58,439 nucleotides of DNA from a virus (taxonomy: Duplodnaviria > Caudoviricetes). Shown here piece by piece: positions 27,213 through 57,838 of this stretch. The notes beneath the pieces are model-generated. The model searched no databases, was not told the DNA's origin, and saw nothing but the letters and a program-made list of their open reading frames with translations. The stretch spans positions 1-58,439 of IMG/VR virus record IMGVR_UViG_3300034091_000288; one strand, given 5' to 3'. The translations under genes and the position numbers were made by a program. How positions within the stretch are numbered: position 1 is the stretch's first letter; the number at the start of each line of letters is the position of its first letter.

Positions 27213-27289
27213 TGGAGCTGCTGAGTGGACTCGAACCACCGACCCCCTGCTTACGAGGCAGGCGCTCTAACCGACTGAGCTACAGCAGC
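27213..27289 (-). tRNA. tRNA-Thr(CGT)
   Basis: Full cloverleaf: GCTGCTG/CAGCAGC acceptor, loop CTCGTAA, TTCGAGT T-loop, encoded CCA. Confidence 0.97.
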
Positions 27290-27314: not shown

Positions 27315-27914
27315 TCAACACGGATCAACACACCTGCCGTAATGCGACACGCGAAACCAGCATTGACATCTGGCACAAAGATGCTTCCCGGCGCTCGCCT
27401 CGTATTTTGCCTGACAGTGCGGACATCGAACGATGAACCCGGGCCCGCCACAAGTGGCCGCGAAAACCAAGGCTCCCATCAAGAAAAGACCGGCAATTAT
27501 AAATATCATCGCTGTCGCTACAGTTCGAGCCGGTCGAGCAAGTTGTGGGCAAAGGCCAGGATTGCCTCGAACTTGTTGTTCTGCTCCTGGAGCTTTTGCG
27601 CCAAGGGCGCGGGCGCATCCACACTGCACCTTGCCCGTTTCGCCCAACACGGACTTATAACAGTACCCGTCGTTGGCCTCAGCATAGACGACCTTGGACT
27701 TCACCATCTCGATACAGGTGCGCTTCGCCAGGGCGAGGGTGGGAAACTTCTCGCTGCCGCCGGTGCCAAGCACCTTGAAGGCCGCCCTCACCTGATAACT
27801 CGGAAAGCGGCGCAGGGTTTCGAACCAGGAGCCCTCGACGGTCTCCGCGATGTGCGCCAGCGGGTAGGCGTCCACCAGGGCGCGGAACGCGTCATGGAAT
27901 TCACCCTGCGTCAC
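27315..27914 (-). CDS. Initiator partner (helicase loader/inhibitor-like N-terminus) with TM + Zn-ribbon tail
   Basis: Overlaps initiator stop; W...L..F...V..A...KFPT pattern. Confidence 0.5.
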   Translation of the reverse strand: MTQGEFHDAFRALVDAYPLAHIAETVEGSWFETLRRFPSYQVRAAFKVLGTGGSEKFPTLALAKRTCIEMVKSKVVYAEANDGYCYKSVLGETGKVQCGCARALGAKAPGAEQQVRGNPGLCPQLARPARTVATAMIFIIAGLFLMGALVFAATCGGPGFIVRCPHCQAKYEASAGKHLCARCQCWFRVSHYGRCVDPC

Positions 27915-28723
27915 TGGATCACCTTGGCGTCTTCCTCGGCATAGCGCTCCAGGCGCTTGGCGTAGGCTTCGAGTTTCGCCTTCGGGCTCACCACTTCCAG
28001 GATGGCCGGATCAAACTTGTCGAAGTTCGCGCAGAAGTACCGCAGGGAACCGCCTTGCTTCAAGTGGAACGGATCGTCCGTCGTGACGTATCCGTCCCAG
28101 TGCGTGCAGAAAGTTTCGATGGACAGATCACCTTTGCGGCGGAACAGAGCGGCGAGCTGGACGAAGTCGGCTTGCGTCCAATTCGGTTTCTGCCCGCCGT
28201 GCTGGTCCTGGTACCTCGAAAAAGCATAGTCGCGGCAAACCACCAGCGGGCTTGCGCTGCTCGGTTTGTGAGCAGCGCCTTCTTGTTCTTCTAAGTACTT
28301 TTCTTCTTTATAGCGGCCACTTTGGTCCGCGCTTTTTGGCCACTTTGGTCCGCTTTCGCGGCCACTTTGGTCCGCTGTGGCCACTTTGGTCCGCTGGCCA
28401 CTTTGGTCCGCAGCCCAGCGCTCATAGTCCTTCTGCAACCCCAACCGCGGGCATTCTCCGGGCGGCCCGGTGCGCTCCACGATCTGGGCGTCGATCAGGG
28501 CTTTAAGTTCCCGGCGCAGCGTTCGCGGGACTAACCCCGTGAGCCGAGCTAGGTCGTGGGCAGAGAGCGGCGCTGTTTTCCGTCCGCCATTGCGGCCATA
28601 GCATTCGCGGATCACCACCAGCAAGATTCGAAATTGGGCGCCGTTCAGCGGCATCCGGGCCAGGGCTTCGAGCAATTCATTCGCGATGCGCGAGAAACCG
28701 TGTTCAAGCTGGACATCGGCCAT
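27911..28723 (-). CDS. Replication initiator (lambda O-like N-terminus)
   Basis: GFSRIANELLEALARMPLNGAQFRILLVVIRECYG; internal iterons; GGAGG RBS. Confidence 0.88.
   Translation of the reverse strand: MADVQLEHGFSRIANELLEALARMPLNGAQFRILLVVIRECYGRNGGRKTAPLSAHDLARLTGLVPRTLRRELKALIDAQIVERTGPPGECPRLGLQKDYERWAADQSGQRTKVATADQSGRESGPKWPKSADQSGRYKEEKYLEEQEGAAHKPSSASPLVVCRDYAFSRYQDQHGGQKPNWTQADFVQLAALFRRKGDLSIETFCTHWDGYVTTDDPFHLKQGGSLRYFCANFDKFDPAILEVVSPKAKLEAYAKRLERYAEEDAKVIQ
28315..28411. repeat. Five 16-bp iterons, putative origin
   Basis: GGCCACTTTGGTCCGC at 28315, 28338, 28360, 28379, 28396; AT-rich tract 28281-28312 adjacent. Confidence 0.9.
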
Positions 28724-28776
28724 CTCAGCCTCCAAGTCTCAAAGTGGAAAACTCTACTTGTGCGTGAGGGAATGCC

Positions 28777-37370: not shown

Positions 37371-37547
37371 TCACGTCACCTTGAAAGGCGTTAAACACTT
37401 GCACGACGGACACGCAATGATGATGATCCTCCCTGCGAGTTGCGCCTTGGCCGTCTCGGGAAAAGGCGCGCCGCAGTGGAAGCACTTCGGCGGTTTGTCC
37501 CAGGTGCAATCTCCCAGCTTCAGCACGCGGGGTTTGGGCCTGTTCAT
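37371..37547 (-). CDS. Small Zn-ribbon protein
   Basis: CFHCG...CPSC. Confidence 0.55.
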   Translation of the reverse strand: MNRPKPRVLKLGDCTWDKPPKCFHCGAPFPETAKAQLAGRIIIIACPSCKCLTPFKVT

Positions 37548-37954
37548 AGGGTCACCTTCCGCTGCGTGTTGGGGATGAACTGGCCTTTCATGGTCCACTC
37601 CGCCCACTCCGCGACGCGCCCTCCGAGATTCCCGCTGCCCCAGGTGAGGGGCCGCGTCTTTAGCTCGGTCACGAGGCTGTCCACTTCATAGACCACGCGG
37701 CGCCCGCTCTGCGCGACGAGCATCAGCGTCAGGCGCACCGGGCGCACCCGCTCCTGCTCGACCAACTCCCGCAGGTCCCACATCGTGCCCTCTTGCAGCG
37801 CCGAGCCGGGCGCGAGCACGATCTGCGGAGCCTTCACGATCTCCGCTTCCGCGCCCCACTCCGGGCCGCCGCCGATGATCGGGACCACGCGGGCTCCCGG
37901 ACCCATCAGGTCCGCGATCTCGTCGATGCGAAACTTCCGCTGCGGCCAATTCAC
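37544..37954 (-). CDS. Hypothetical protein
   Basis: Overlapping start/stop chain. Confidence 0.55.
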   Translation of the reverse strand: MNWPQRKFRIDEIADLMGPGARVVPIIGGGPEWGAEAEIVKAPQIVLAPGSALQEGTMWDLRELVEQERVRPVRLTLMLVAQSGRRVVYEVDSLVTELKTRPLTWGSGNLGGRVAEWAEWTMKGQFIPNTQRKVTL

Positions 37955-38079
37955 TCCAGCAGTCCCTTTTTAATCAGAATCCGGCGCGCGTCGTTCGCCG
38001 TGATCTCCCCCTGGGCGAGCCGTTTGCGCAGATGGCGACGCCAGTACCAGCAACGGACCCAACGCCACAGTGTTTTCAT
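37951..38079 (-). CDS. 42-aa basic Trp-rich peptide (not in ORF track)
   Basis: AGGAGG RBS; MKTLWRWVRCWYWRRHLRKRL... Confidence 0.6.
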   Translation of the reverse strand: MKTLWRWVRCWYWRRHLRKRLAQGEITANDARRILIKKGLLE

Positions 38080-38135
38080 GCGGCCTCCTGGACTAATGCC
38101 ACTCACTAGCCTCACCCTATCCAGCGCAATGCGCC

Positions 38136-38163
38136 ATTATACCCGCTTGCCGTCCGCCGTCAA
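38136..38163 (-). promoter_or_regulatory. Leftward sigma70 promoter
   Basis: TTGACG-16-TATAAT. Confidence 0.75.
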
Positions 38164-38171
38164 GTTTTATC

Positions 38172-38218
38172 TTGACAATCCCGCTCACATATAGCCATAC
38201 TATAGCCGTAGTATAGCC
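38172..38218 (+). promoter_or_regulatory. Rightward promoter with three phased TAGCC boxes
   Basis: TTGACA-18-CATACT; TAGCC at 38192, 38203, 38214. Confidence 0.75.
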
Positions 38219-38239
38219 ACAATGTTAGGAGGTAGTAGG

Positions 38240-39022
38240 ATGCAGCCTACTCTGACTTTTCCCGCCCGCCTGTCCGAACGCTGGCGCGGTCACCAGCTCC
38301 GCGACTTCATCGGCTTGGTGCGGCCCAAGGCGGTCTTGACGAACTTTCTGCGCGCCCCCTGGCCGGAAGCCTTCCTGTTTCTCGGCCCGACCGGGGTGGG
38401 TAAAACCACGATGGCCCTGGCGCTGGCGGAGTTGCTGCCCGCCGAACTGCGCCAAATCCCCTCCCGGTCCTGCGACCTGGAGACGCTCGATCAGGCCGTG
38501 CGCGGCTGCCATCACGTCCCCTGGAACGCCCGCTTCCACATGCTCCTGGTGGACGAAGCCGAACAGATCACCCGCGATGCGCAGGCGCGTTTCCTTTCCC
38601 TGCTGGACGCCACGGCGTGGCCGCCCGCCACGATCTTCATCTTTACCGCCAACCGCACCGACACCTTCGAGCCCCGCTTCTTGTCCCGGCTCAAGACCCT
38701 GCCCTTCACCACCGAAGAGGTTTCCCGCGCTTTGCCCGCCTTCCTGCGCCGCGTGGCGCGCCGGGAGCATTATCACGCCATCGACATCCGTAAGTGTATC
38801 CCTGAAAACGGCAACGTGCGCGACGCGCTGAACCGCCTGGAAATGGAAGCCCTGGCGGAAGGCGTCGTGGACGCCCATCCCGCCGTGGAGTGGGAGCGCT
38901 ACAAGTCCGCCCACCTGTGGCACTGCTGTGTCTGCGCCGGGTCGATCAAGCCCGGCACCACTTTCCTGATCGCCGGCGAGCAAGCCTGCCATACCGCCTG
39001 CAAACCCAAAGGAGGATCTTAG
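38240..39022 (+). CDS. Clamp-loader-like AAA+ ATPase with C-terminal Zn finger
   Basis: GPTGVGKTT, LVDEAE, FTAN, LSRL, GNVRDALNRLE. Confidence 0.85.
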   Translation: MQPTLTFPARLSERWRGHQLRDFIGLVRPKAVLTNFLRAPWPEAFLFLGPTGVGKTTMALALAELLPAELRQIPSRSCDLETLDQAVRGCHHVPWNARFHMLLVDEAEQITRDAQARFLSLLDATAWPPATIFIFTANRTDTFEPRFLSRLKTLPFTTEEVSRALPAFLRRVARREHYHAIDIRKCIPENGNVRDALNRLEMEALAEGVVDAHPAVEWERYKSAHLWHCCVCAGSIKPGTTFLIAGEQACHTACKPKGGS

Positions 39023-39024
39023 TC

Positions 39025-40251
39025 ATGCCCGAACCCGAAGAAGTAAAAGTCAATCCGACCACCCCGCCCCCGGAACCCGTCAAGACCGTGGGCCCGCCCC
39101 CGGAGCCTAAACCCACGCCCTTCGAACTGACCGTGGACCGCGACGCTTTCCTCGACGAATTGGGGCTCGCCGCATGGTGCGCGGAGAAGAGGGCCACGCA
39201 GCCCATTCTTTCCGCCGTGCTGCTCACCCTGCAACCGCAAGAGAAGAAGAAGTGGCTGGCGCTCCAGACCACCGATCTCGAAGTCGCCTTTGCCACAAGG
39301 CTCCCGATCACCGCCTCCACCGGCAGTGGCCGCGTGGCCGTGGACGCCCAACTCCTGCTGAGCGCCTGCAATGCCGTCACGTCCGACACCCTGCGCCTCA
39401 CCTTCTCGGGGACCGCCTTCACCCTGGACGCCGGCAACGCCCACTTCGAATTGCCCACGTTCAACCCCGCCAACTTTCCCGTGCTGCCCGAGCGTCCCGG
39501 CGGCGCGGTCGCCCTGGCGGCCGAGCCGCTCGTCGCCGCCATCGAACACACCCGCTACGGCGTGTCCGCGGAACCCAACCGCTACACCATGAACGGAGCG
39601 TTGCTGGTGATCGGCGCCGCTACCAACAAACTCAAGATGGTCGCCACGGACGGCCATCGGATGCCGATCTACGAGCACCCGGTCAAGATCGACAAGAAGG
39701 CTCCGGATCTCCAACTCATCGTGCCCGTCCCCATGCTCTCGCTCTTGCCCTCGGCCCTGGCGGACGCCAGCACGGTTGCGCTCGCCTACAACGAAGCCCA
39801 TCTGTTTTTCAGCGCAGGCAAGCGGCAGATGGCCGTGCGCCGCATGATGGGGCAGTTCCCGCAGTACGAGCACGTCCTGCCCACCGACTTGCCCGTGCGC
39901 ATGGAGTGCGACCGCAAGGAACTGGTCGCCTGCCTGCGCCGCGTCGCCCTGGTCGCCGACGAACGCTCGAACGGGGTGAGGCTCGAGTTTCACCCGAAAT
40001 CGCTTGTCATCACCACGCACAGCGACGCGGGAAGCTCGACGGATAAACTCGCCGCTGCCACCACGGGGCTGACAGAGCCGCTCATGGTGGGATTCGATCT
40101 GCGCTATCTGCTGGATTTTGTCACGAGCGCGCGCACGTCCCGCGTGGCCCTCTCGGTGAAAGCAAAGGATCTGGCGTGCCGCTTCGACATCGTGCCCGAG
40201 GAAGGAGTGGACTACCAGTTGTTGTGCGTCATCATGCCGCTCAGGTATTGA
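39025..40251 (+). CDS. dnaN: DNA polymerase III beta sliding clamp
   Basis: TTDLE, MVATDGHRM, GQFPQYEHVLP, GFDLRYLLD, VIMPLR. Confidence 0.95.
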   Translation: MPEPEEVKVNPTTPPPEPVKTVGPPPEPKPTPFELTVDRDAFLDELGLAAWCAEKRATQPILSAVLLTLQPQEKKKWLALQTTDLEVAFATRLPITASTGSGRVAVDAQLLLSACNAVTSDTLRLTFSGTAFTLDAGNAHFELPTFNPANFPVLPERPGGAVALAAEPLVAAIEHTRYGVSAEPNRYTMNGALLVIGAATNKLKMVATDGHRMPIYEHPVKIDKKAPDLQLIVPVPMLSLLPSALADASTVALAYNEAHLFFSAGKRQMAVRRMMGQFPQYEHVLPTDLPVRMECDRKELVACLRRVALVADERSNGVRLEFHPKSLVITTHSDAGSSTDKLAAATTGLTEPLMVGFDLRYLLDFVTSARTSRVALSVKAKDLACRFDIVPEEGVDYQLLCVIMPLRY

Positions 40252-40276
40252 CCCGTGGCTAGAGAGTGGCTATAGT
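40248..40276 (+). promoter_or_regulatory. Promoter of RHH gene with two inverted TAGCC boxes
   Basis: TTGACC-17-TATAGT; GGCTA at 40257 and 40268. Confidence 0.75.
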
Positions 40277-40313
40277 GTGTGGGCCGGAACCCCGGCCCAC
40301 CAAGGAGGTTGCT

Positions 40314-40541
40314 GTGAGAGAGAAACGCAAGAAGATCGCCCGGACGGCGCCGCAGAGCGCCTACATCCGCTTCATGCCGGAAGAGTGGACGCTCATCCAG
40401 GATGTGCTCGCCCGCCGCATGGAGGAATGGCGCAAGGACCCGCGCAACACGCCCAAGCCGAGCCTGACCAGTTTCGTGGCGGTGGCTGCCGTCGAAGCCG
40501 CGAAGCGGGCGTTGGGCCATCCGGTGGAAGTCCATGCCTAG
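40314..40541 (+). CDS. Ribbon-helix-helix regulator (TacA/DUF1778-like pattern)
   Basis: AAGGAGG-GTG; strand SAYIRF, helix PEEWTLIQ, helix SLTSFVAVAAVEAAKRAL. Confidence 0.7.
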   Translation: MREKRKKIARTAPQSAYIRFMPEEWTLIQDVLARRMEEWRKDPRNTPKPSLTSFVAVAAVEAAKRALGHPVEVHA

Positions 40542-40647
40542 CTCGCGGGGCGGCGCTGCCACGCCGCCCTGGGGCACCGTAACGCTGGAGTCGCCTGTCC
40601 CGCCCCCACCCATGTAGCCTACTGTAGCCTATTGCTAACTCCTTTGT

Positions 40648-40702
40648 TTTCAACACGTTAGTATAGCCGCAATCCCCTAAAAGTACCCGTAAGTTATTGA
40701 AA
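40648..40702. promoter_or_regulatory. Two inverted IHF-like sites
   Basis: TTTCAACACGTTA (+) and TTTCAATAACTTA (-) vs WATCAANNNNTTR. Confidence 0.45.
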
Positions 40703-40720
40703 ACAAAGCACTTTTAGTGC

Positions 40721-40777
40721 TTGCAATCCGTCCCGTCTATAGCTATACTATAGCCTCATGCTATCCACTATATAGCA
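40721..40777 (+). promoter_or_regulatory. Major early promoter with four phased boxes
   Basis: TTGCAA-17-TATACT; TAGCT 40740, TAGCC 40751, TATCC 40762, TAGCA 40773. Confidence 0.8.
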
Positions 40778-41515
40778 TGTATGTTCTTTGACAAACGAAC
40801 GGGACGGCAGGACACCGAGGGACCATCTGAGTACGCCTGAAAAACCCGTAAACCCGGGATGGCGGAGGGCGATCTAACCCAGTGAAACGCGCCGTTCAGT
40901 TCCAAGTTTCCAGCCAGTCGCACAATCCCCATAGCCTTGATGGTAGGGGATGAGCCGCTCGCCGCGTTGCAAGTGTGCTAAGCCCACACTTCATGTCCGC
41001 CGCCTAGCCTCATGGTAGCGGGAAAGGACGGCAACCCCAGGTTGCATTGAACGCTTGAGTGCCGCGACTGTCGCTTGGAGAGCCACCCCGAATCTGCTGT
41101 GCGTAGCCTTAATGGTAGCGCGGCACACGTCGGGGGGGTTCCGTTCCATACAAAACTGAGTAAGCGCGAAACCTAATCCGCATCGCGTCCACGCGCAAGC
41201 GAACCGCTCTGCCCTAGCCTTATGGTAGGCAACGGTAGGCCAGATGCGCAACGGGGTTTCGAGTGACCGCTGAAAAGTGTCGATCACCGTCCGCCGTCGC
41301 GGGTTTGTCCGAGCCTCCATCGAGGGCCTGTTCAACGCGACGCTCCGAACGCGCACAATTTTACCCCTTATGCTTTCCGTCGTCCGCAGGCAACGTCTGC
41401 GCGGCTGTAGTACCGGCAGGTCTCCAACGCAGCCTGACCGCACTGTGACCCGTTGCAAACTGGCAAGCGGAAAGAACGAGGGGATCTCGCACGCGCCGCC
41501 CTCGCCCGGGCGGAG
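40756..41515 (+). ncRNA. Large multi-domain structured RNA with four conserved hairpin caps
   Basis: No credible ORF; many nested helices, some with G-U pairs; repeated TAGCCT-N1-2-ATGGTA caps. Confidence 0.7.
40782..40794 (+). promoter_or_regulatory. rrn-type boxA antitermination site
   Basis: TGTTCTTTGACAA vs TGCTCTTTAACA; preceded by hairpin CATGCTAT/ATAGCATG. Confidence 0.65.
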
Positions 41516-41521
41516 CTGTGC

Positions 41522-41818
41522 CTACCCGACACGGTTGTCGCCCGCCGCCTGGCGCTGGGCAATCGAACCGCCGATCTCGCGACTCCGCAGAAATGTTTCG
41601 ATGGATTCCCGTCTATAATAAACGGCTCGCCCGAGCTTGATGAACGGGAGTCCACGATCGGGCTCCCCCTCCCTCACGAGGCGCCGCATCTTGCGAAGAT
41701 AGGCCACGGTGAACGGGTACTCGCGTTGCACGTCGCGCTCCCGGAGCAACCCCTTGGGCTGACTCTCCTGCACAGCCCCGCAGGGGCTGGCCTTCGGGAT
41801 GTTCTTGTGTCTCGTCAT
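41522..41818 (-). CDS. Xis/AlpA-like HTH protein
   Basis: GGAGG RBS; LLRERDV...YLRKMR..GLPFIKLGRAVYYRRESIETFL. Confidence 0.8.
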   Translation of the reverse strand: MTRHKNIPKASPCGAVQESQPKGLLRERDVQREYPFTVAYLRKMRRLVREGEPDRGLPFIKLGRAVYYRRESIETFLRSREIGGSIAQRQAAGDNRVG

Positions 41819-41870
41819 TGTGTGCCTCCGTAGAGCGGCATCATCAAGGGTCAACTTTGAGCCGTCAAGA

Positions 41871-41928
41871 CGCACGAGTTTCGGGCGTTAATACGTGCGC
41901 GCACGAGTTTCGGGCCTTATCTCGTGCG
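41871..41928. repeat. Tandem 29-bp repeats with palindromic ends
   Basis: CGCACGAGTTTCGGGCgTTAataCGTGCG / CGCACGAGTTTCGGGCcTTAtctCGTGCG. Confidence 0.85.
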
Positions 41929-42129
41929 CGTTATCAATGTGTAAACATCAGTGCAGGGTTAGCGGAGACTCTTCGGGTTCAAGTGGTGACGGGAGACAAA
42001 AGACCTCAATTGGTTGTAGGGGATCTCGAGATGGCGCGCGATCTGCCCCTGTTTCCAGCCTTGCGCCAGCAGACCGCGGACGGTTTCCAGGAGGCGCCGG
42101 TTCGTCTGATTCCAAAAAGGAGTCCAACC

Positions 42130-42420
42130 GTGAAAACCAGAGGTTCTGCGCGCACCGCGCCCGCCGATCTCAAGCGCATCAACTCCATGTTCAACGCCAT
42201 GTCAGACCTGCTCGGCTATCTGCACGCCCGCTGGCAGGACGAGTCCGAGTACGAGAACATCGCTGAGTACGCCAAGGCCGTTCGCAAGAATCTGCCCAAA
42301 GGTTTCAAGCTGCTCCGCATGATGAAGCGCCCCTTTGGCTTCCAGTTCTCGATTGGCACGCCTGCCGTCTACCGCATGACCGCCACGAACAACGCCGCCG
42401 AATGGCTCCGCCTCTTCTAG
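42130..42420 (+). CDS. Phage hypothetical protein
   Basis: AAGGAG-GTG; RWQDESEYE..MKRPFGF. Confidence 0.7.
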   Translation: MKTRGSARTAPADLKRINSMFNAMSDLLGYLHARWQDESEYENIAEYAKAVRKNLPKGFKLLRMMKRPFGFQFSIGTPAVYRMTATNNAAEWLRLF

Positions 42421-42516
42421 TTCGCACTTTCCAAACACCTGCCCGTCTGTTTCGCAAGTAGTCAACTGCCACCAGCAGGAACGTCGCCGTCAAATTCAAA
42501 ACAAAGGAGTCCCACC

Positions 42517-42762
42517 GTGGAAAACCAACAACACGCCCAACTCCCGAATGCCTTGAGCCTGCGCGATTGCGCGTGGAAGGCTCTGGACATCTACAACCAG
42601 CATGAGAACGCCGCCGAAATCGACATGATCTTCGGGGCCGGCCCCTGGGCCAGCGAAAGCCATGCGCGGCTGGCGGACAGGGAAATTAAAGCCCTGGCCG
42701 AAGCCAACGGGTTCACGTTCGAGGAAGTGGACCTGGAAATGGCCATCGCGGTCGTGAACTGA
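42517..42762 (+). CDS. Hypothetical protein
   Basis: AAGGAG-GTG. Confidence 0.7.
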   Translation: MENQQHAQLPNALSLRDCAWKALDIYNQHENAAEIDMIFGAGPWASESHARLADREIKALAEANGFTFEEVDLEMAIAVVN

Positions 42763-42771
42763 GGAGGCGCC

Positions 42772-42990
42772 ATGACGAAACCGCAGACCTGCCGCCACTG
42801 CAAAAAGACGTTCATCCCGCAGCCGGGCAAGCCGGGGTTCATCAATGAATGCCCTGACTGCCTGCGACCGCCCGATCTGCCTACACCTGCGCCGGTTGCG
42901 CAAGTGCGCAAGCGCCGCACGCCGATGGACCGGGAATTGCGCCGGTTCCTCCGCGATCTGCGCATCATTCTCGGAGGGCGCCATGCGTAA
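42772..42990 (+). CDS. Small Zn-ribbon protein
   Basis: CRHC...CPDC; GAGGAGG. Confidence 0.7.
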   Translation: MTKPQTCRHCKKTFIPQPGKPGFINECPDCLRPPDLPTPAPVAQVRKRRTPMDRELRRFLRDLRIILGGRHA

Positions 42991-43447
42991 ATCCGTCCGT
43001 GCTGAATTGCACTTGCTCCGCGAAATTGCCCACGATCTGCTGCGGGGCAAGACCTGCTACTTCTGCCATGAGCCGCTGGTCGCCGACGTGGACAGCCGCT
43101 TTGGGAACAAAGACAACTCCCCGCTCCACGTCGAACTGACGGTTCACCATTTGAATGACAATCACGAAGATAACCGCCCGGCCAACCGCCGCTGGACCCA
43201 CGCCGCCGGGCACCGCGCCTATCACGCGCAGCGCACCTTTCACAAGCGCAGCGCGGCCCAGGCCCGCAGGCTCGCCGGGGCTCGCTGCATGAGCCTCGAT
43301 CTCTCGCAGTTCCACCGCTACCGTTGCGGCACCGCCAAGCGCTGCGAAGCCTGCGGGGGCACCATCCCACCCCGCACCGTCTATTACTACTCCCGCAAAG
43401 GCCGCACGATCTGCGCGGGCTGCAAGCAAGCTGCCACCAGTAACTAA
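42983..43447 (+). CDS. HNH-like nuclease with C-terminal Zn finger
   Basis: CYFC...VHHLNDNHEDNRPAN...H..YH. Confidence 0.65.
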   Translation: MRKSVRAELHLLREIAHDLLRGKTCYFCHEPLVADVDSRFGNKDNSPLHVELTVHHLNDNHEDNRPANRRWTHAAGHRAYHAQRTFHKRSAAQARRLAGARCMSLDLSQFHRYRCGTAKRCEACGGTIPPRTVYYYSRKGRTICAGCKQAATSN

Positions 43448-50477: not shown

Positions 50478-51275
50478 ATGTCCAAAGTCTGGAAAGGCAC
50501 ACTCACTTTTGGTTTGATCTCGTTTCCCTGCTACTTCGAAACCGGAGCCCGCGAAGAGGGCATCGGCCTGCACCTGTATCACGCGAAATGCAAAGGCCCG
50601 GTCAAGCGGCCCAACTTCTGCCCGGAATGCAACCGCCAGCCGGAAAGCGAAGAAGTCGAGAAGGGTTACGAACTGGACACCGGCGGCTACCTGCCGATCA
50701 CCAAGGAGGATCTCGACTCCATCGCCGTCGAAAACGAGAAGGTCATCGAAGTCATCGCCACGGTTCCGGCCAAAGACGTCGACCCCGTTTATTTCAACGA
50801 AAGCTACTGGCTCCTGCCGGACAAGCCCGGTCGGAATGCCTACGGCGTGCTGCTGGCCGGGCTCATCAAGGACAAGTCCATCGCCATCGCCCGCCTCACC
50901 AAAAACCAGCGCGAGCACGTCCTGGCCCTGCGGCCTTCCGGCAAAGGCATCTGCATCCACTACCTCTATTACGGTGCGGAAGTCACCCTGCCCCCGGACT
51001 ACGAAGCGCTGCAACTGCCCGCCGTCAAGCCCGAAGAAGCGGAACTGGCTCGCCAGCTACTCGAAAACATGCGCACCAAATTCGAGCCCGACAAATTCGA
51101 GGATGGCTACCAGAAGCGCCTCGCCGCCTTGATCGAACAAAAGATGAAAGGCGGCAAGCCCAAGAAGGCCGCGCCGGCGAAACCCAAAGCGCAACCTGCG
51201 CCCGACATGCTCGCGGCCCTGCAAGCCAGCCTTGCGGCCAATAAGCGGAAATTCCGCGTGGAAGAAAGGGGGTGA
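50478..51275 (+). CDS. ku: Ku DNA end-binding protein
   Basis: VWKGTLTFGLI, KGYE, VDPVYFNESYWL, FEPDKFEDGY, DMLAALQASL. Confidence 0.95.
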   Translation: MSKVWKGTLTFGLISFPCYFETGAREEGIGLHLYHAKCKGPVKRPNFCPECNRQPESEEVEKGYELDTGGYLPITKEDLDSIAVENEKVIEVIATVPAKDVDPVYFNESYWLLPDKPGRNAYGVLLAGLIKDKSIAIARLTKNQREHVLALRPSGKGICIHYLYYGAEVTLPPDYEALQLPAVKPEEAELARQLLENMRTKFEPDKFEDGYQKRLAALIEQKMKGGKPKKAAPAKPKAQPAPDMLAALQASLAANKRKFRVEERG

Positions 51276-52296: not shown

Positions 52297-52498
52297 GACC
52301 ATTCTCTTCTCCGAACTCAAGCGGCTGTCGATTGTCAATAGGCCGCCGAGTCCGGTGGACGCCCTGGGCCATCGCATGACTTGGGTCGGCTTCACCTGGG
52401 TGGACGAAGGCGAGGCTCATGGGGACGAAGTGCTCGTGGTGGATGACCCGGTACCGGAAAGGAGGAAGAACCGTGCGATACACCGTAACCGAAAGTGA
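52277..52498 (+). CDS. Hypothetical protein
   Basis: AAGGAG-GTG; WVGFTWVDEG. Confidence 0.6.
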   Translation: MKKPKRKTILFSELKRLSIVNRPPSPVDALGHRMTWVGFTWVDEGEAHGDEVLVVDDPVPERRKNRAIHRNRK

Positions 52499-53540
52499 GC
52501 CGTTCACGGTCATGGACAGCGACACGCCCGTCATCAGCTATCCCGACCGCGCCGACGCTGAACGCTTTGCGGCCCGGCTCAACCGCAAAGTGCAGAAGGT
52601 TGCCGACGTGCTCCCGGCCATGCCCACCGCCGCCGCCTTGCGCATGGCCGACGAAATTGACCGGCAGCGCAGCGCCCCACCCGAAATCAACATTCCCGAC
52701 TGCGAATTGCTCGAAGAGATCGACCGGCCCCGGGCTGAGCGCCTGCTCGCCAACGACGCCTACTGGCTGCAACTCAAGGCCAATGGCAAACGCTGCCGCA
52801 TCCTCAAGGCCCAGGGAAAGATCACGGGGCTCAATAAACGGGGCGAGCGCATCGCCCTGCCACCAGCCCTGGCCGCCTTCACCCAAGCCCTGCCCTTCGC
52901 CAGCCTCTTGATCGACGGCGAACTGATGCCGGGCGGCCACTACATCGCCTACGAACTGCTGGCCCAAAGCGGCATCGAGGATCTCCCCACCCGCGCTTAC
53001 TCGTTCCGCTTTTACGAGTTGCTCACCCTGCTCAAGGACGCGCCGGCCGAAGTGATCGAGCCCATCCAGACCTGGTTCACGGAGGGCGCGAAGAAGGAAG
53101 GGCTCGCTGAACTGGAAGCCGCCAAGGTCGAGGGCGCCGTGTTCAAGAAAGCCGATGCGCCGTTCCGCCCCGGCCGCAACGGCCAGCATTTGAAGTACAA
53201 ATTCGTCAAAAGCCTCACCGCGAAGATCATCCCGAAAAACGCGAAGGATGAAGCCAAGGGGCATGAGTCCGCCGCCCTGGGGCTCTCGAACGGCAATGGG
53301 AAGTGGGTGGAAGTCGCCCACGCCTCGCTCATCGGCAAGATCAAACTCGTGCCCGCTGCGCAGCGCTCCGGCTGGCAGTGGCTCGGGAAGCACGTCGAAG
53401 TCGAATACCTGATGGGCTACGGCACGAAGGCCGCGCCGCGGCTTGTGCAACCTCGCATCGTCGCCGTGCGCGACGATACGACCGACCGGGACTGCGCGCT
53501 TGCCCAGGTGCAGTTCCACCAGGGACAGGGGGAAAAATGA
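52473..53540 (+). CDS. ATP-dependent DNA ligase
   Basis: Motifs KANGKR, IDGEL, YIAYELL, EGAVFK, LKYK; C-terminal VEVEY..P...VRDD. Confidence 0.85.
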   Translation: MRYTVTESEPFTVMDSDTPVISYPDRADAERFAARLNRKVQKVADVLPAMPTAAALRMADEIDRQRSAPPEINIPDCELLEEIDRPRAERLLANDAYWLQLKANGKRCRILKAQGKITGLNKRGERIALPPALAAFTQALPFASLLIDGELMPGGHYIAYELLAQSGIEDLPTRAYSFRFYELLTLLKDAPAEVIEPIQTWFTEGAKKEGLAELEAAKVEGAVFKKADAPFRPGRNGQHLKYKFVKSLTAKIIPKNAKDEAKGHESAALGLSNGNGKWVEVAHASLIGKIKLVPAAQRSGWQWLGKHVEVEYLMGYGTKAAPRLVQPRIVAVRDDTTDRDCALAQVQFHQGQGEK

Positions 53541-54092: not shown

Positions 54093-54574
54093 AAGTCAGA
54101 ACCGAATTTGGTCTCGCGCGCACTGAATGTGCGTGCCCGCACTGCACACAGTTTTGCCTTTTCATGCCGGGCTTCCTCGTCCCGTCTGACTTGGAACGCA
54201 TGGTCCCGGCCGGGGCAGACCCGCTCGCCTGGGCAGAGACGAACCTGCTGGCTTCGCCTGGGGCCCTGGTCATGCAGGGTCGCCATTTATTCCGAATCCC
54301 CACGCTCGTTCCGGCGGTTCGGGCAGACGGCTCTTGCATTAACTTCGACGGCGCTTGCACCATCCATGCCATAGCGCCCTTCGGCTGCGCTTTCCCGTCG
54401 TGCTCGGACCCGCCAGAGTTTGAGGCGGCAGCCGCAGAGGCTTTGCGGACCATCCTGTGCGAACACTCCGATCACGCCACGCTTTACGCACGGGTCTGGA
54501 ACCACCTGTGGGACATCGGCCGACGCCAACTCCCACCGGAAGAGCTACGCAAGCGGGAAAGGACACAACCTTGA
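54089..54574 (+). CDS. YkgJ-like Cys-cluster protein
   Basis: C.CPHC..FC...CINF.GACTIH..APFGC. Confidence 0.65.
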   Translation: MKVRTEFGLARTECACPHCTQFCLFMPGFLVPSDLERMVPAGADPLAWAETNLLASPGALVMQGRHLFRIPTLVPAVRADGSCINFDGACTIHAIAPFGCAFPSCSDPPEFEAAAAEALRTILCEHSDHATLYARVWNHLWDIGRRQLPPEELRKRERTQP

Positions 54575-55065
54575 AAGTCATCTTCCTCGACATCGACGGC
54601 GTGCTGAACAACGCCGCTTGTTTTCTCACCGGACCGGGCGGCCTTCGGGCGAGGCCGGACCCGCTGTGCATCCAGGCCCTCAACCGCATCCTGCGCGCCA
54701 CGCGGGCCAAGATCGTCATCAGCAGCGCGTGGCGGAAGCACCTGACTGAACACCAACTCGCGGCCTTGCTCGCCAAGTGGAAAGTCGCCGGGCGCCTGAT
54801 CGGCACCACGCCCTGGGTCATCTGCGCGCCCCGTGGAGCCGAAATCCGGGCGTGGCTCGAGCAGCATCCGCGCGTCCGCCAGTTCGTCATCCTCGACGAC
54901 GATGCGGACATGGAGGATCTGCACCCCCACCTAGTCCTCACCCGCTTTGCCCGTGGCCTCACCGAAGCCCAGGCGACGCGGGCCATCCAAATCTTAGAAA
55001 GGAGGAACTATGCCCCAAGTCATCGAAATGCACGCGGGGTCCAACGCCGTTTGCGATTTCTGTAG
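54571..55065 (+). CDS. HAD-domain phosphatase (RNA-repair-associated type)
   Basis: KVIFLDIDGVLN, IVISSAWR, RGAEIRAWL, FVILDD. Confidence 0.88.
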   Translation: MKVIFLDIDGVLNNAACFLTGPGGLRARPDPLCIQALNRILRATRAKIVISSAWRKHLTEHQLAALLAKWKVAGRLIGTTPWVICAPRGAEIRAWLEQHPRVRQFVILDDDADMEDLHPHLVLTRFARGLTEAQATRAIQILERRNYAPSHRNARGVQRRLRFL

Positions 55066-55939: not shown

Positions 55940-57838
55940 ATGGAGACTCACGATCTCCGTCTTGCTGACATCACCTTAGACAAAGAGAACCCCCGGCAAC
56001 ATGACCGCGAGCGCGGTCTGGACGATCTCGCCGCCAACATCAAGGCCAAGGGCGTCCTCCAGCCCATCCTGGTGCGCCCCCACAAAAACGGCGGCAAGCA
56101 ACCCTACCAACTGGTCTACGGCGAGCGCCGCTACCGCGCCTCGAAGCTGGCCGGTCTGGAAACCATTCCCGCCATCGTGCGGGAAATGACCGACGCCGAA
56201 GCCCTGGAAGCCCGCATCATCGAAAACCTCCAGCGCAACGATGTCCACTTCCTCGACGAAGCCGCCGGATTCCAACGCCTGCTCGACACCGGCCTGACGC
56301 CCCAGGAAGTGTCCGACCGCGTGGGCAAGCCCCCGGTTTACATCCACACCCGGCTGGCCCTGAACAACCTCATCCCCGAATTCCACAAGCCCGCCTACGA
56401 GGGGCTGCTGACGGTCGGCCCGGCCATGCTGCTCGCCCGGCACACGCCGGGAATCCAAAAACGCTTCTTCCAGGATGTGAAGCCGCGTCTCAAGTGGGGC
56501 ATCAGTAGCACCGCCGTGCAGGAATTCGTCGACCGCCAAGCGTTCGTCCCGCTCACCGAGGCTCCCTTCGACACCGCGGACGCGAACCTCGTGCCCAAAG
56601 CCGGAGCCTGCCTCAACTGCCCCAAGCGCACCGGCGCCTCCCCCCTGCTCTTTCCCGACATCAAGGCGAAGGACACCTGCTCGGACCCCGACTGCTTCCA
56701 GTCCAAATGCCTCGCCGTGATCGAAGCCCGCAAGAAGGAATTCCCCAAAGCCATCCAAATCGCCGCCGAACGCGCCGGTTACGGGAAGGCTGACCTCAAA
56801 GACGTGTACTATCTCGACCCCGGATGGAACGACGGCGGCAAACATGCCTACTGGCAGAGAAGCAACCCCGGAGACTGCGACTCCACCCAGGACGCCATCA
56901 TTGTCGTGGGACCGCCGCGCGAGTTGGGCAAGCACACCTACGCCTGCGTCGATGCGAAGTGCCCGGTCCACTTCATCGGCCGACGCTCCGGCCCTCCCCT
57001 CCCGCACAAACCGGGCGTCATCAGCGAAGAGAAGAAGCAACAAGTCGAAGAACTCTGGCAGCGGCGCACCGGCAAAGCCTGCCGGCTCGCTCTCCACGCC
57101 GCCATCCGCGAGCGCCAGGAGCAACTCGCCGCCAAGTCGAAGGAGAACACCGTCGTGCCCCTCGAAGCCTTGCGCGCGGCGGTCCGGAAAGCCTGTGCGT
57201 CCCTGCACCCGAGCCAGGACGGCGCGGAGTACCTTGCCTCCCTCTGGTTCAGCGAGAAAGAGCGCCAGAAAGGCAGCGGGTACCACGGCGAGCGCCTGCT
57301 CCCCTTGATCGACAAAGCCGACCAGCACACCTGCCTGCGCCTGCTGCTGGACTTCGCCATTGCGGAGGAAGTCTCCAGCAAGTACAGCCGCGCGCATGGC
57401 CTGGAAGTCATCCCCGCTGCCTACAAGCTGGACGCCAAAGCCGTCGTCGCGCCCGTCGAGAAAGCGTGGAACGAAAAGAAGGCCGCGAGCTACAAGAAGC
57501 GCGACGAGCGGCTGAAAAAGGAACGGGCGAAGGCGGAGGCGAAAAAAGCGAAAAAAGAAAAAAAGAAGAAGCCCAGCCCTTGGGTAGAGGTCCCTCCAGT
57601 CGAGAAGCCCGAACAGGCCAAGCACGTCCACGCCCTGCACACCGGCAACTGCTGCAAGTTCTGCGGCTGCACCGAAGCCGCCGCCTGCGTCACCGACCAG
57701 GGGCCGTGCTCCTGGCTGGTGAAACCGAGAAAACTCCGGGGCAAGAAGGAATACCGGGCCGGGGTTTGCTCCAACCCGAAGTGCGTCCTCGCCCTCGATC
57801 AAGAAAAGAAGGAGGCCAAGCGTGCCGCCAAAACCTAA
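55940..57838 (+). CDS. ParB/Srx-domain protein with HTH and Cys clusters
   Basis: NPR, GVLQPILVRP, GERRYRA, ENLQRND, HTH, CLNCPKRT. Confidence 0.9.
   Translation: METHDLRLADITLDKENPRQHDRERGLDDLAANIKAKGVLQPILVRPHKNGGKQPYQLVYGERRYRASKLAGLETIPAIVREMTDAEALEARIIENLQRNDVHFLDEAAGFQRLLDTGLTPQEVSDRVGKPPVYIHTRLALNNLIPEFHKPAYEGLLTVGPAMLLARHTPGIQKRFFQDVKPRLKWGISSTAVQEFVDRQAFVPLTEAPFDTADANLVPKAGACLNCPKRTGASPLLFPDIKAKDTCSDPDCFQSKCLAVIEARKKEFPKAIQIAAERAGYGKADLKDVYYLDPGWNDGGKHAYWQRSNPGDCDSTQDAIIVVGPPRELGKHTYACVDAKCPVHFIGRRSGPPLPHKPGVISEEKKQQVEELWQRRTGKACRLALHAAIRERQEQLAAKSKENTVVPLEALRAAVRKACASLHPSQDGAEYLASLWFSEKERQKGSGYHGERLLPLIDKADQHTCLRLLLDFAIAEEVSSKYSRAHGLEVIPAAYKLDAKAVVAPVEKAWNEKKAASYKKRDERLKKERAKAEAKKAKKEKKKKPSPWVEVPPVEKPEQAKHVHALHTGNCCKFCGCTEAAACVTDQGPCSWLVKPRKLRGKKEYRAGVCSNPKCVLALDQEKKEAKRAAKT

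What the first reader, a model, noticed from the sequence alone, without database searches (positions are those of the whole stretch)
40925..41235. Candidate new system: RNA hairpins that mimic the phage repressor's DNA operator
Seen: four hairpins with unrelated stems (ATCCCC/GGGGAT, CCGC/GCGG, TGCTGTGC/GCGCGGCA with two G-U pairs, TGCC/GGCA) enclose the same cap N-TAGCC-T(TG|C|TA|T)-ATGGTA, starting at 40932, 41005, 41104 and 41215. The cap can fold so that UAGCC pairs with GG-UA, which is the duplex TAGCC:GGCTA with one C missing and the G bulged. The same TAGCC forms phased arrays at the early promoters, and cap 2 (TAGCCTCATGGTA) differs by one base from the box at this RNA's own start (TAGCCTCATGCTA, 40751). 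Established: RHH proteins insert a beta-ribbon into the major groove, bulges open the narrow A-form groove, and CsrB-type RNAs titrate proteins with repeated hairpins. Inference: the RNA is a multivalent decoy for the adjacent RHH repressor (40314-40541), giving a positive-feedback switch with an RNA antirepressor.
Basis: partly seen in the sequence, partly recalled or inferred. Interest (0 to 1): 0.92.

Follow-up and report, generated by a model that had tools for sequence, protein, structure and literature searches.

The report
Four-hairpin structured phage RNA candidate
A peat-soil phage carries a tightly folded, roughly 460-base non-coding RNA candidate whose four hairpins all display the same short sequence, probably a repeated docking site for one regulator, but its partner and its role have not been tested.

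Summary
Four hairpins on the + strand (40925-41231) enclose the same 13-14-nt cap on stems of unrelated sequence. The cap occurs nowhere else in the 58-kb record, and no shuffle produced it. The hairpins sit inside a 465-nt domain closed by a 25-nt long-range helix. This domain folds far better than shuffles as + strand RNA (z -5.23) but not as - strand RNA (z -1.38). No Rfam family matches.

The neighbouring 75-aa protein has no Pfam hit, but it models as a symmetric dimer of ribbon-helix-helix type. TATAGC(C) boxes mark three promoter-like sites. One box is 12/13 identical to cap 2.

The decoy idea is untested, and several results weigh against it:
- The only relative found keeps the protein and a promoter box cluster but lacks the hairpins and the whole segment.
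- The repeated box unit shares only TAGCC with the cap.
- The cap string also equals a tRNA D-arm.
- No RNA data exist.

Best reading: a new multivalent protein-docking phage RNA with an unknown partner. The RHH-like protein is the first candidate. Only one lineage carries it, so interest is moderate.

The parts
40925..40951 (+). Hairpin 1: stem ATCCCC/GGGGAT, unpaired A, cap TAGCCTTGATGGTA (40932-40945)
   Evidence: model R2 41.3 bits
40995..41029 (+). Hairpin 2: inner stem CCGC/GCGG, outer GUCC/GGAC across a 1x4 internal loop, unpaired C, cap TAGCCTCATGGTA (41005-41017)
   Evidence: R2 35.8 bits
41095..41125 (+). Hairpin 3: stem TGCTGTGC/GCGCGGCA with two G-U pairs (+ strand only), unpaired G, cap TAGCCTTAATGGTA (41104-41117)
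   Evidence: R2 44.3 bits
41210..41231 (+). Hairpin 4: stem TGCC/GGCA, unpaired C, cap TAGCCTTATGGTA (41215-41227)
   Evidence: R2 29.9 bits
40850..40874 (+). 5' arm of the long-range closing helix of the structured domain
   Evidence: Inverted repeat I1, 25 nt, 84% complementary to 41282-41306; kept in the MFE and centroid folds
41282..41306 (+). 3' arm of the closing helix; the domain 40846-41310 encloses all four hairpins
   Evidence: (RNA + strand -203 kcal/mol, z -5.23, 0 of 100 shuffles as good) against (- strand z -1.38, 9 of 100)
40721..40749 (+). Promoter-like site P3 (TTGCAA-17-TATACT) that would start the rightward RNA near 40756; overlapped by TATAGC boxes
   Evidence: not shown to be active
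40749..40763 (+). Box TATAGCCTCATGCTA: a promoter box whose last 13 nt are 12/13 identical to cap 2, not enclosed by a stem of its own
   Evidence: families D1, D2
40767..40794 (-). Leftward promoter-like site P4 (TTGTCA-16-TATAGT) facing P3, with a leftward terminator-like hairpin at 40722-40706
40613..40637 (+). Boxes TGTAGCCTAC / TGTAGCCTATTGCTA in the AT-rich stretch (GC 0.425); the second is a 13-mer of cap type with TGCTA in place of TGGTA
40314..40541 (+). 75-aa basic protein modelled as a ribbon-helix-helix-type dimer; candidate partner. Its promoter-like site 40248-40276 carries two GGCTA boxes
38190..38218 (+). Three TATAGCC boxes 11 bp apart over the -10 region of the promoter-like site of the clamp-loader / sliding-clamp operon

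Best explanation
The four hairpins belong to one structured non-coding RNA domain of about 460 nt (about 40849-41307, + strand). It lies in a 980-nt gene-free gap between the RHH-like gene and a convergent HTH gene, downstream of a face-to-face promoter pair in the AT-rich control region.

Each hairpin offers the same 13-14-nt cap on a stem of different sequence and length, and the 1-2 nt at the tip of the cap vary. This is the signature of a site read in folded single-stranded form by one sequence-specific partner.

The most likely working is a multivalent docking RNA that holds up to four copies or dimers of a nucleic-acid-binding protein and so changes how much of it is free or where it sits. 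The caps are related to boxes at the phage's own promoters. The partner is therefore probably a phage regulator that also reads those boxes, and the neighbouring RHH-like dimer is the first candidate.

Shown: the hairpins, their compensatory stems, their uniqueness, the strand bias of folding, the closing helix, and the relation to the 40751 box.

Inferred: that the region is transcribed from P3, that a protein binds, which protein it is, and the regulatory outcome.
For: - Cap: 4 of 4 matches on the + strand; 0 of 100 shuffles give any match.
- Pairing: 95.2% of 42 pair cells paired, against 27.8-63.2% for slid partners; 4 of 12 pairs with two-sided changes.
- The two G-U pairs in hairpin 3 exist only on the + strand.
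- Domain 40846-41310 as + strand RNA: z -5.23, 0 of 100 shuffles as stable. As - strand RNA: z -1.38, 9 of 100. With DNA energies: -2.19 and -0.91.
- A 25-nt closing helix spans 407 nt.
- Seven promoter-like sites were found in 37500-43000 against 0.9 expected, including P3 just upstream.
- No convincing ORF lies in the gap. The only ORFs fail the GC3 test that recovers the flanking genes.
- The variable spacing between the TAGCC and GGTA halves (4 or 5 nt) suits a loop, not a rigid duplex site.
- Cap-like 13-mers occur at 40751 (1 mismatch) and 40625 (3 mismatches) in the promoter region.
- The probable replication origin is elsewhere: five iterons inside a Phage_rep_O gene.
- Precedent: phage regulators Aca2 and Aca1 bind both a promoter DNA repeat and RNA hairpins (PMC13551039 / bioRxiv 10.64898/2026.07.27.740549, passages read).
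Against: - There is no expression evidence.
- No + strand terminator-like site was found between 40800 and 41520.
- The element is known from one phage lineage only. Contigs from four further peat runs show no differing base across 40542-41521, though cover is patchy in two, so there is no natural variation to test.
- G001, the one relative found, shares structural genes at 31-76% identity. It has the RHH-like gene but no cap hairpin and no counterpart of window 40.5-54.4 kb.
- The inner cap pairing has no covariation.
- The cap string is also what tRNA positions 8-21 look like, so another kind of partner is possible.
Confidence: 0.45

Rival explanations
1. First reader's reading, a special case of the best explanation. 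The caps imitate the RHH repressor's DNA operator. The RNA titrates the repressor in trans and, being made from a repressed promoter, gives positive feedback (an RNA antirepressor).
For: - The RHH-type dimer model passes: score 0.61, best of 3 controls 0.00. The mark was reached by 20 of 30 proteins solved as pairs of one chain and 1 of 23 solved as single chains. Runs agree in at least 96% of contacts and partner pLDDT is at least 75. The interface is 14-22, 24-34 and 51-69, with a 17:17 contact.
- TATAGC(C) boxes overlap the -10 regions of three promoter-like sites at 10-11 bp phasing.
- A TATAGCC / ATAGCT / AGCTATA cluster sits at the homologous promoter of G001, which also keeps the protein.
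- Cap 2 is 12/13 identical to the P3 box.
- Aca2 and Aca1 are a precedent for dual DNA and RNA binding.
Against: - The protein has no Pfam or PHROG family, no PDB fold match for the monomer model and no PDB sequence match of RHH type.
- The repeated operator unit A(C/G)TATAGCC shares only 5 nt with the cap, and that 5-mer is not enriched.
- The invariant ATGGTA half is absent from the phased boxes.
- G001 has the protein without the hairpins.
- I know of no RHH protein that binds RNA (recalled). The 7 papers listed for RHH + RNA-binding + hairpin + phage show none by title, abstract start or the passages read.
Confidence: 0.12
2. Cis-acting regulatory RNA rather than a trans decoy. The domain may be a long 3' UTR of the clamp-loader / clamp / RHH operon, or a leader made from P3. 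Protein bound to the hairpins would control the stability, processing or read-through of that same transcript, by Aca2-like autoregulation or nut-like loading of a factor onto RNA polymerase. This includes read-through antisense to the convergent HTH gene.
For: - The domain has the same strand as, and lies directly downstream of, the RHH gene, with no terminator-like site between them.
- A convergent HTH_17-like gene ends at 41522.
- Aca-type architectures place a DNA motif at the promoter and RNA hairpins downstream of the start site.
Against: - The hairpins begin about 170 nt after the predicted P3 start, and no + strand gene or ribosome-binding site follows them.
- The next + strand genes (from about 42130) have their own upstream repeats of a different sequence.
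- Four copies are more than known nut or Aca sites use (recalled; describes one or two hairpins).
Confidence: 0.15
3. The caps are targets of a small antisense RNA. The leftward promoter-like site P4, with the leftward terminator-like hairpin at 40722-40706, would give an RNA of about 60 nt. This RNA carries the complement of the 40751 box, which could kiss the four loops. Recalled analogues are the phage P1 c4 and P4 CI immunity RNAs, which act on repeated target sequences.
For: - P4 matches 10 of 12 consensus positions, and a leftward terminator-like site lies about 40-60 nt downstream.
- The complement of the box would pair with 12 of 13 cap-2 positions.
- Three of the four best duplex sites in 40780-41320 are caps, at -25.9, -23.4 and -21.2 kcal/mol.
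Against: - These energies are not beyond the best site of shuffled probes (mean -19.4, sd 2.5, minimum -27.3 over 200 shuffles). Cap 1 reaches only -16.5.
- All four caps carry the same G where pairing would need C, and their central bases differ.
- The predicted start near 40760 would cut off part of the complementary stretch.
- No Rfam match, c4-type families included.
Confidence: 0.06
4. The hairpins act as single-stranded DNA. They could be priming or initiation signals, hairpin promoters, or nicking sites with a conserved loop, exposed during replication or packaging.
For: - Variable stems with a conserved loop also mark hairpin origins of rolling-circle replicons and N4-type hairpin promoters (recalled).
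- The region follows replication genes: clamp loader and sliding clamp.
- The + strand also folds somewhat better than shuffles with DNA energies (z -2.19, 6 of 100).
Against: - The excess stability is much larger with RNA energies (z -5.23).
- A 407-nt-range closing helix and G-U pairs fit RNA better.
- A lambda-type origin is present elsewhere: five 16-nt iterons at 28315-28411 inside the Phage_rep_O gene.
- No HUH or Rep nuclease domain was found among the 40 window proteins scanned against Pfam.
Confidence: 0.07
5. tRNA-related element. The cap reproduces tRNA positions 8-21 (5' strand of the D stem plus the D loop). The hairpins are then either mimics that engage a tRNA-binding factor or a T-loop-like receptor, or remnants of a decayed tRNA array. 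Cap spacing of 73, 99 and 111 nt fits a tRNA array.
For: - Exact cap strings lie inside tRNA-His genes of two unrelated phage contigs, L069 and L235.
- A lone stem-N-cap-stem hairpin with cap 2's exact sequence lies in a gap of the tRNA array of six large phage contigs: L227, L228, L231, L232, L234 and L236.
Against: - ARAGORN and the Rfam tRNA model find no tRNA in 40500-42550.
- The base after GGTA pairs with the 5' flank, not with GCC, so no D stem forms.
- Among 92 distinct cap contexts from 143 loci, stems of 5 bp or more in the exact design occur in 3 contexts (2 families). About 0.7 are expected from 0.375 per pair, so the outside hairpins may be chance.
Confidence: 0.07

Closest known systems
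CsrB / RsmY / RsmZ-type protein-titrating RNAs (recalled)
   Same: A non-coding RNA that repeats one short motif at the top of several hairpins with unrelated stems, suited to holding several copies of one protein.
   Different: Those RNAs show GGA in small loops for CsrA/RsmA. Here the repeated unit is a 13-14-nt cap without GGA. There are only four copies inside a closed 465-nt domain, the context is a phage, and the partner is unknown. No Rfam family matches.
Aca2 / Aca1 anti-CRISPR-associated regulators with dual DNA and RNA binding (PMC13551039, also bioRxiv 10.64898/2026.07.27.740549; passages read)
   Same: A small phage regulator binds a repeat overlapping its promoter and also conserved RNA hairpins made from the same locus. 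The DNA and RNA sites are related.
   Different: Aca2 and Aca1 are HTH proteins. Their one or two hairpins lie directly after the start site in the 5' UTR and block translation in cis. Here the candidate is RHH-like, and there are four hairpins about 170-480 nt from the predicted start with no gene behind them. Binding is untested. The same paper's RHH regulator Aca14 is described as binding DNA repeats only.
6S RNA (recalled)
   Same: An RNA whose fold imitates a DNA target of the transcription machinery and sequesters the protein.
   Different: 6S RNA imitates an open promoter and binds RNA polymerase holoenzyme once. Here a short duplex-like cap is repeated four times, and the supposed target is a repressor. 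No Rfam 6S match.
Coat-protein operator hairpins of MS2 / PP7 and the lambda N-boxB hairpin (recalled)
   Same: A protein reads a short stem with a bulged purine and a small loop. Stem sequence is free if pairing is kept.
   Different: Those sites are single, lie at a ribosome-binding site or a nut site, and have other sequences. Here there are four copies inside a larger fold.
Antisense immunity RNAs of phages P1 (c4) and P4 (CI) (recalled)
   Same: A repeated short sequence in an early transcript lies near a candidate small RNA made from the same control region.
   Different: Complementarity here is imperfect and not better than shuffled controls. No small RNA has been shown, and there is no Rfam match.

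Membership tests
Ribbon-helix-helix (Arc/MetJ/CopG) DNA-binding proteins (for the 75-aa neighbour) | Match to a curated RHH family profile | tested here: not met
   0 Pfam and 0 PHROG families at E <= 0.01. A profile of 3 homologues finds no RHH chain in the PDB. The Atlas gives only unnamed clusters and DUF3950 at 0.91 with 139 shared features.
Ribbon-helix-helix (Arc/MetJ/CopG) DNA-binding proteins (for the 75-aa neighbour) | Strand-helix-helix order in a domain of about 45 residues | tested here: inconclusive
   The monomer model has helices 22-41 and 51-66 after an extended N-terminal part, mean pLDDT 71.2. Foldseek finds no PDB match with E <= 0.001. In the alignment of 3 homologues, R19 and F20 are invariant before helix 1.
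Ribbon-helix-helix (Arc/MetJ/CopG) DNA-binding proteins (for the 75-aa neighbour) | Intertwined homodimer whose two N-terminal strands pair into an antiparallel ribbon | tested here: met
   Model only: score 0.61, best of 3 controls 0.00. The mark was reached by 20 of 30 proteins solved as pairs of one chain and 1 of 23 solved as single chains. Runs agree in at least 96% of contacts and partner pLDDT is at least 75. Residues 14-22 of both copies touch, including 17 with 17. The pass may reflect likeness to solved RHH dimers.
Ribbon-helix-helix (Arc/MetJ/CopG) DNA-binding proteins (for the 75-aa neighbour) | Binds repeated operator subsites about one helical turn apart | not testable with these tools
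   Boxes at 10-11 bp phasing exist, but nothing links them to this protein except proximity and co-occurrence in G001.
Protein-titrating (sponge) RNAs of CsrB/RsmZ type | Several hairpins presenting the same motif | tested here: met
   Four hairpins with one cap, on stems with two-sided changes in 4 of 12 pairs.
Protein-titrating (sponge) RNAs of CsrB/RsmZ type | The motif is the GGA site of CsrA/RsmA | tested here: not met
   The caps contain no GGA (sequence). No Rfam CsrB/Rsm match.
Protein-titrating (sponge) RNAs of CsrB/RsmZ type | Independent transcript with its own promoter and terminator that acts in trans | tested here: inconclusive
   Promoter-like site P3 lies upstream, and no + strand terminator-like site was found downstream. 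No RNA holder is listed.
Aca2-type dual DNA/RNA-binding phage regulators | DNA repeat overlapping the promoter of the regulator's own operon | tested here: met
   Two GGCTA boxes lie inside the TTGACC-17-TATAGT site before the RHH-like gene. Binding has not been shown.
Aca2-type dual DNA/RNA-binding phage regulators | RNA hairpins directly after the start site in the 5' UTR, next to the regulated start codon | tested here: not met
   The hairpins lie downstream of the regulator gene, about 170-480 nt from the predicted P3 start, and no gene follows.
Aca2-type dual DNA/RNA-binding phage regulators | HTH DNA-binding domain | tested here: not met
   No HTH family was found. The model is of RHH type.
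tRNA / tRNA-like RNA | Cloverleaf recognised by ARAGORN or the Rfam tRNA model | tested here: not met
   The only tRNA in the window is tRNA-Thr at 27213-27289. There are no matches at E <= 5 in 40500-42550.
Any described RNA family (Rfam 15) | Covariance-model match | tested here: not met
   The gathering-threshold scan of the window finds only the tRNA. A permissive scan of 40500-42550 gives 0 matches at E <= 5.

The most novel reading that the evidence does not exclude
A phage makes a folded RNA whose four identical caps imitate the duplex operator of its own ribbon-helix-helix repressor. The RNA soaks the repressor up, so that firing of the promoter derepresses the early promoters. This would be an RNA antirepressor working by nucleic-acid mimicry, and the first RNA-binding RHH protein.
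Probability: 0.12. Interest if true: 0.85.

Novelty: new variant of a known kind. Interest (0 to 1): 0.55.

Why it matters
Structured non-coding RNAs of phages are few, and most have no known function. This is a clean candidate. It has internal covariation from four paralogous hairpins, a strong strand-specific folding signal, no Rfam family and a clear experimental handle in the cap. It comes from a phage of a poorly studied host group: the nearest cellular sliding clamps that carry a name are named Terriglobia or Acidiferrales by their sources.

If the partner proves to be the neighbouring repressor-like protein, dual DNA/RNA reading by phage regulators, known so far for HTH Aca proteins, would extend to the RHH fold and to a trans-acting, multivalent form. 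If the partner is a tRNA-handling factor, the element would be a new kind of tRNA-part mimic. Either result can be tested with one transcript and one 75-aa protein.

Tried and rejected
Expression and natural variation
- No RNA holder is listed for 40200-42000: all 6 listed runs are peat DNA.
- Contigs from 4 further peat runs show no differing base in 40542-41521. Only two single-contig differences appear, at 41586 and 42056, so there is no natural variation to use.

Searches for relatives
- Viral-contig searches with the RHH-like protein, the clamp, the HTH gene and P0003 gave no relative.
- The phages collection gave no DNA match.
- TerL tblastn gave only distant phages, all under 60% identity.
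- The ATPase led to Tunturiibacter phage Tunturi_3, which shares just 3 of 52 window proteins. It has no significant cap hit; the best is 12.3 bits, E 2.1.
- The single metagenome scan returned only loci at 30-34% identity to the clamp, the range of cellular clamps. It missed the contigs of P0003 and P0004.
- RHH and TerL profiles in viral contigs each found only G001.

Pattern scans
I examined all 112: one recurrent sequence shared by many large contigs (context not examined), chance sites, one tRNA and one iteron array (L017).
- The two-cap pattern gave 21 stretches in genome contigs and 11 in viral contigs. No array of capped hairpins appeared.

Other checks
- The de novo search for hairpin arrays with shared loops found the window's array as positive control. 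It found nothing convincing in G001 or Tunturi_3. It is noisy: 1, 0 and 5 arrays in three shuffles. An earlier 7-mer version was too noisy to use.
- MAFFT misplaced the cap indel, so the alignment was made through a first model from hairpins 1 and 3.
- The best G001 hit of model R2 (14.8 bits) lies inside a coding-looking stretch and is not a hairpin array.
- The origin-of-replication reading was rejected because an O-type gene with iterons lies at 27911-28735.
- Literature: no paper describing an RNA decoy of a phage repressor's operator was found; 8 papers hold all terms, 7 listed; 1 paper; 25 papers hold 3 of 4 terms, 8 listed. These were judged by titles and abstract starts only. Supplementary files were not consulted.
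Full report
**What the window is.** The 58,439-base window is a whole IMG/VR virus record, estimated 58% complete. Near-identical DNA is held in six peat metagenome runs. It encodes:
- a large terminase, a portal and a Mu-F-like protein;
- a clamp loader and a sliding clamp;
- a lambda-O-type initiator;
- Ku, a ligase-like protein, a HAD_SAK_2 protein and a ParB-like protein;
- one tRNA-Thr.

The nearest cellular clamps that carry a name are named Terriglobia or Acidiferrales by their sources, at about 33% identity. Genes left of about 38,000 run leftward. The clamp loader, the clamp and a 75-aa gene (40314-40541) run rightward. A 980-nt gap without a convincing ORF follows (40542-41521). Then comes a convergent 117-aa gene with a sub-threshold HTH_17 match (22.7 bits against a cut-off of 27). 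The rightward genes resume from about 42130.

**The observation.** TAGCCT-N(0-4)-ATGGTA occurs four times, only on the + strand, at 40932, 41005, 41104 and 41215. No match arose in 100 shuffles. Each cap is preceded by one unpaired base and flanked by complementary arms of 6, 4 (+4), 8 and 4 bp with unrelated sequences. On the alignment of the four, 95.2% of 42 pair cells are standard pairs, against 27.8-63.2% for slid partners. Four of 12 pairs change on both sides. The two G-U pairs of hairpin 3 would be C-A mismatches on the other strand. Four paralogues give limited statistics, and the inner cap pairs never vary, so the proposed bulged-G mini-helix is only one possible fold. The energy model pairs GCC with GGU instead.

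**A larger fold.** A 25-nt inverted repeat (40850-40874 with 41282-41306, 84% complementary) encloses all four hairpins. It is kept in the minimum-energy and centroid structures. The folding signal of domain 40846-41310 is:

| Strand and energy model | Result |
|---|---|
| + strand, RNA | -203 kcal/mol against -172.2 +/- 5.9 for shuffles; z -5.23; 0 of 100 as stable |
| - strand, RNA | z -1.38; 9 of 100 |
| + strand, DNA | z -2.19 |
| - strand, DNA | z -0.91 |

A + strand RNA is therefore the best-supported form. No Rfam family matches, at gathering thresholds for the window or at E <= 5 for 40500-42550.

**The control region.**
- Just upstream lies the only AT-rich stretch of the neighbourhood (GC 0.425 at 40600-40799).
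- It holds a rightward promoter-like site P3 (40721-40749) and a leftward one P4 (40794-40767). They face each other with predicted starts a few bases apart. A leftward terminator-like hairpin sits at 40722-40706.
- TATAGC is enriched: 11 found against 2.9 expected. Nine of the 11 lie at three promoter-like sites. Three TATAGCC boxes 11 bp apart cover the -10 region before the clamp-loader operon. Two GGCTA boxes 11 bp apart lie within the site before the 75-aa gene. Several boxes lie around P3.
- Read, the recurrent unit is A(C/G)TATAGCC. TAGCC alone is not enriched.
- Two sites are cap-like 13-mers without a stem of their own: TAGCCTCATGCTA at 40751 (1 mismatch to cap 2) and TAGCCTATTGCTA at 40625 (3 mismatches). 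A 13-mer within one mismatch of a cap, inside the same 1-kb gap, is unlikely by chance (my estimate: well under 0.1 expected in the whole window). The caps and at least this box are therefore related.

**The neighbouring protein.**
- It has no Pfam or PHROG match.
- It is alone in the word-indexed protein search.
- An exhaustive search found four matches. One is the protein's own cluster (P0001, 99%). Two are short homologues at 38% and 43% identity. The fourth is a 1179-aa repeat protein, which I dropped.
- The monomer model shows two helices after an extended N-terminus and has no PDB fold match.
- Two copies, given the 3-row alignment, model as a symmetric dimer. The score is 0.61 and the best of 3 controls is 0.00. 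The mark was reached by 20 of 30 proteins solved as pairs of one chain and 1 of 23 solved as single chains. Runs agree in at least 96% of contacts and partner pLDDT is at least 75. Residues 14-22 of the two copies touch, including 17 with 17, as in a ribbon-helix-helix dimer.
- This supports the fold assignment by likeness. It does not show binding to anything.

**Relatives.** Only one relative was reachable, G001 (IMGVR_UViG_3300033977_000098, 74.6 kb, 73% complete).
- Its left arm is collinear with the window at 31-76% amino-acid identity.
- It keeps the RHH-like gene (45% identity).
- At the homologous divergent promoter it has a TATAGCC / ATAGCT / AGCTATA cluster.
- It has no counterpart of window 40.5-54.4 kb.
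- It has no cap hairpin. The best hit of model R2 is 14.8 bits inside a coding-looking stretch, against 29.9-44.3 bits for the window's four.
- It has no other convincing hairpin array.

The box-protein pairing therefore seems conserved, while the RNA is an accessory of this lineage, or lies in the missing part of G001. Tunturiibacter phage Tunturi_3 shares only three proteins with the window.

**Wider scans.** Two-cap patterns gave 21 stretches in genome contigs and 11 in viral contigs. None revealed another array.

These scans did show that the cap string equals tRNA positions 8-21. It lies inside tRNA-His genes in L069 and L235. A lone hairpin of the same stem-N-cap-stem design sits in a gap of the tRNA array of six related large phage contigs. 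Among 92 distinct cap contexts from 143 loci, such stems of 5 bp or more occur in 3 contexts (2 families). About 0.7 are expected, so chance is not excluded. No tRNA is detectable in the gap itself.

**How it most likely works.** The variable stems, the variable tip and the variable length between the two invariant halves argue that the cap is read in folded form, not as a rigid duplex. Four copies in one closed domain argue for a multivalent docking RNA. The kinship with the P3 box points to a phage regulator that reads both. The RHH-like dimer is the nearest candidate. HTH regulators Aca2 and Aca1 are a published precedent for dual promoter-DNA and RNA-hairpin binding (PMC13551039, passages read).

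I put 0.45 on the general docking-RNA reading and 0.12 on the specific decoy with positive feedback. The other readings are:

| Reading | Probability | Main result bearing on it |
|---|---|---|
| Cis-acting UTR or leader | 0.15 | Same strand as the RHH gene, with no terminator-like site between them |
| Antisense targets of a leftward small RNA | 0.06 | Duplex energies -16.5 to -25.9, against -19.4 +/- 2.5 for shuffled probes |
| Single-stranded DNA signals | 0.07 | A lambda-type origin lies elsewhere: five iterons at 28315-28411 inside the O-type gene |
| tRNA-part mimic or remnant | 0.07 | Cap equals tRNA positions 8-21, but no tRNA is detectable in the gap |

**Limits.**
- There is no expression evidence.
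- There is no variation among the peat populations.
- The evidence rests on one lineage.
- The contexts of three informative homologues (P0003, P0004, P0122) could not be fetched.
- Paper supplements were not consulted.
- I found no paper describing an RNA decoy of a phage repressor's operator (searches, judged from listings, and from passages of one paper).

**Verdict.** This is a real, well-structured, previously undescribed phage RNA candidate.

Noticed in passing
window 27911-28735 (-), repeats at 28315-28411: A Phage_rep_O-type initiator gene (Pfam E 7.4e-15) carries five direct copies of the 16-nt unit GGCCACTTTGGTCCGC inside its coding sequence. This is the lambda arrangement of an origin within the O gene, so this is probably the phage's replication origin.
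   Followed up: partly
window 40721-40794 and 40706-40722: Rightward and leftward promoter-like sites face each other with predicted starts only a few bases apart. A leftward terminator-like hairpin lies about 40-60 nt further on. This would give mutually exclusive promoters and possibly a leftward RNA of about 60 nt that carries the complement of the cap-like box.
   Followed up: partly
L069 1579-1652, L235 9416-9489; L227/L228/L231/L232/L234/L236 (e.g. L228 5293-5324): The cap string is the 5' D-stem strand plus the D-loop of phage tRNA-His genes. Six related large phage contigs hold a lone stem-N-cap-stem hairpin, with cap 2's exact sequence, in a gap of about 330 nt in their tRNA array between tRNA-Gln and tRNA-Trp, where ARAGORN calls no tRNA.
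   Followed up: partly
L199 5590-5660 (G001 38943-39013): The relative G001 has TATAGCC, ATAGCT and AGCTATA within 30 nt at the promoter region homologous to window 38170-38220. The box type is therefore conserved between two phages whose RHH-like proteins are 45% identical.
   Followed up: partly
L199 6174-8270 and L203 14760-15710: By eye and not tested: where the window has the hairpin gap, G001 has a Gp37/Gp68-like gene and a TnpB-like gene. Elsewhere it has an IS-type transposase. The region looks like a hotspot for insertions.
   Followed up: no
window 40693-40709; L197 29788-29804 (-): The 17-mer GTTATTGAAAACAAAGC in the AT-rich region recurs with one change in the 1.66-kb gene-free, repeat-rich region of Tunturiibacter phage Tunturi_3, which shares only 3 proteins with the window. 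It may be a host-factor or promoter element common to phages of these hosts.
   Followed up: no
window 41871-41886 and 41900-41915: Two direct copies of CGCACGAGTTTCGGGC, each followed by a partial inverted copy, lie between the divergent HTH_17-like gene and the rightward genes from about 42130. They look like the operator of that HTH protein and are unrelated to the TATAGCC boxes.
   Followed up: no
window 50478-51275, 52419-53540, 54457-55065, 55940-57838: Ku (E 1e-30), a ligase-like protein (sub-threshold), a HAD_SAK_2 RNA-repair-type domain (E 8e-32) and a 632-aa ParB-like protein. This is an end-joining plus partition set, which suggests a linear or plasmid-like lifestyle.
   Followed up: no
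window 18182-21553 (-): The 1123-aa Mu-F-like protein also matches a PI3/PI4-kinase domain at residues 988-1038 (E 1.7e-6, 28.6 bits against a cut-off of 27.1). This is unusual for a head-morphogenesis protein.
   Followed up: no
window 40972-40990: Between hairpins 1 and 2 a 7-bp hairpin AGUGUGC..., read as AAGTGTG / CACACTT, carries the loop CTAAGCC, which resembles a cap half (TAGCC with an extra A). It may be a degenerate fifth site.
   Followed up: no
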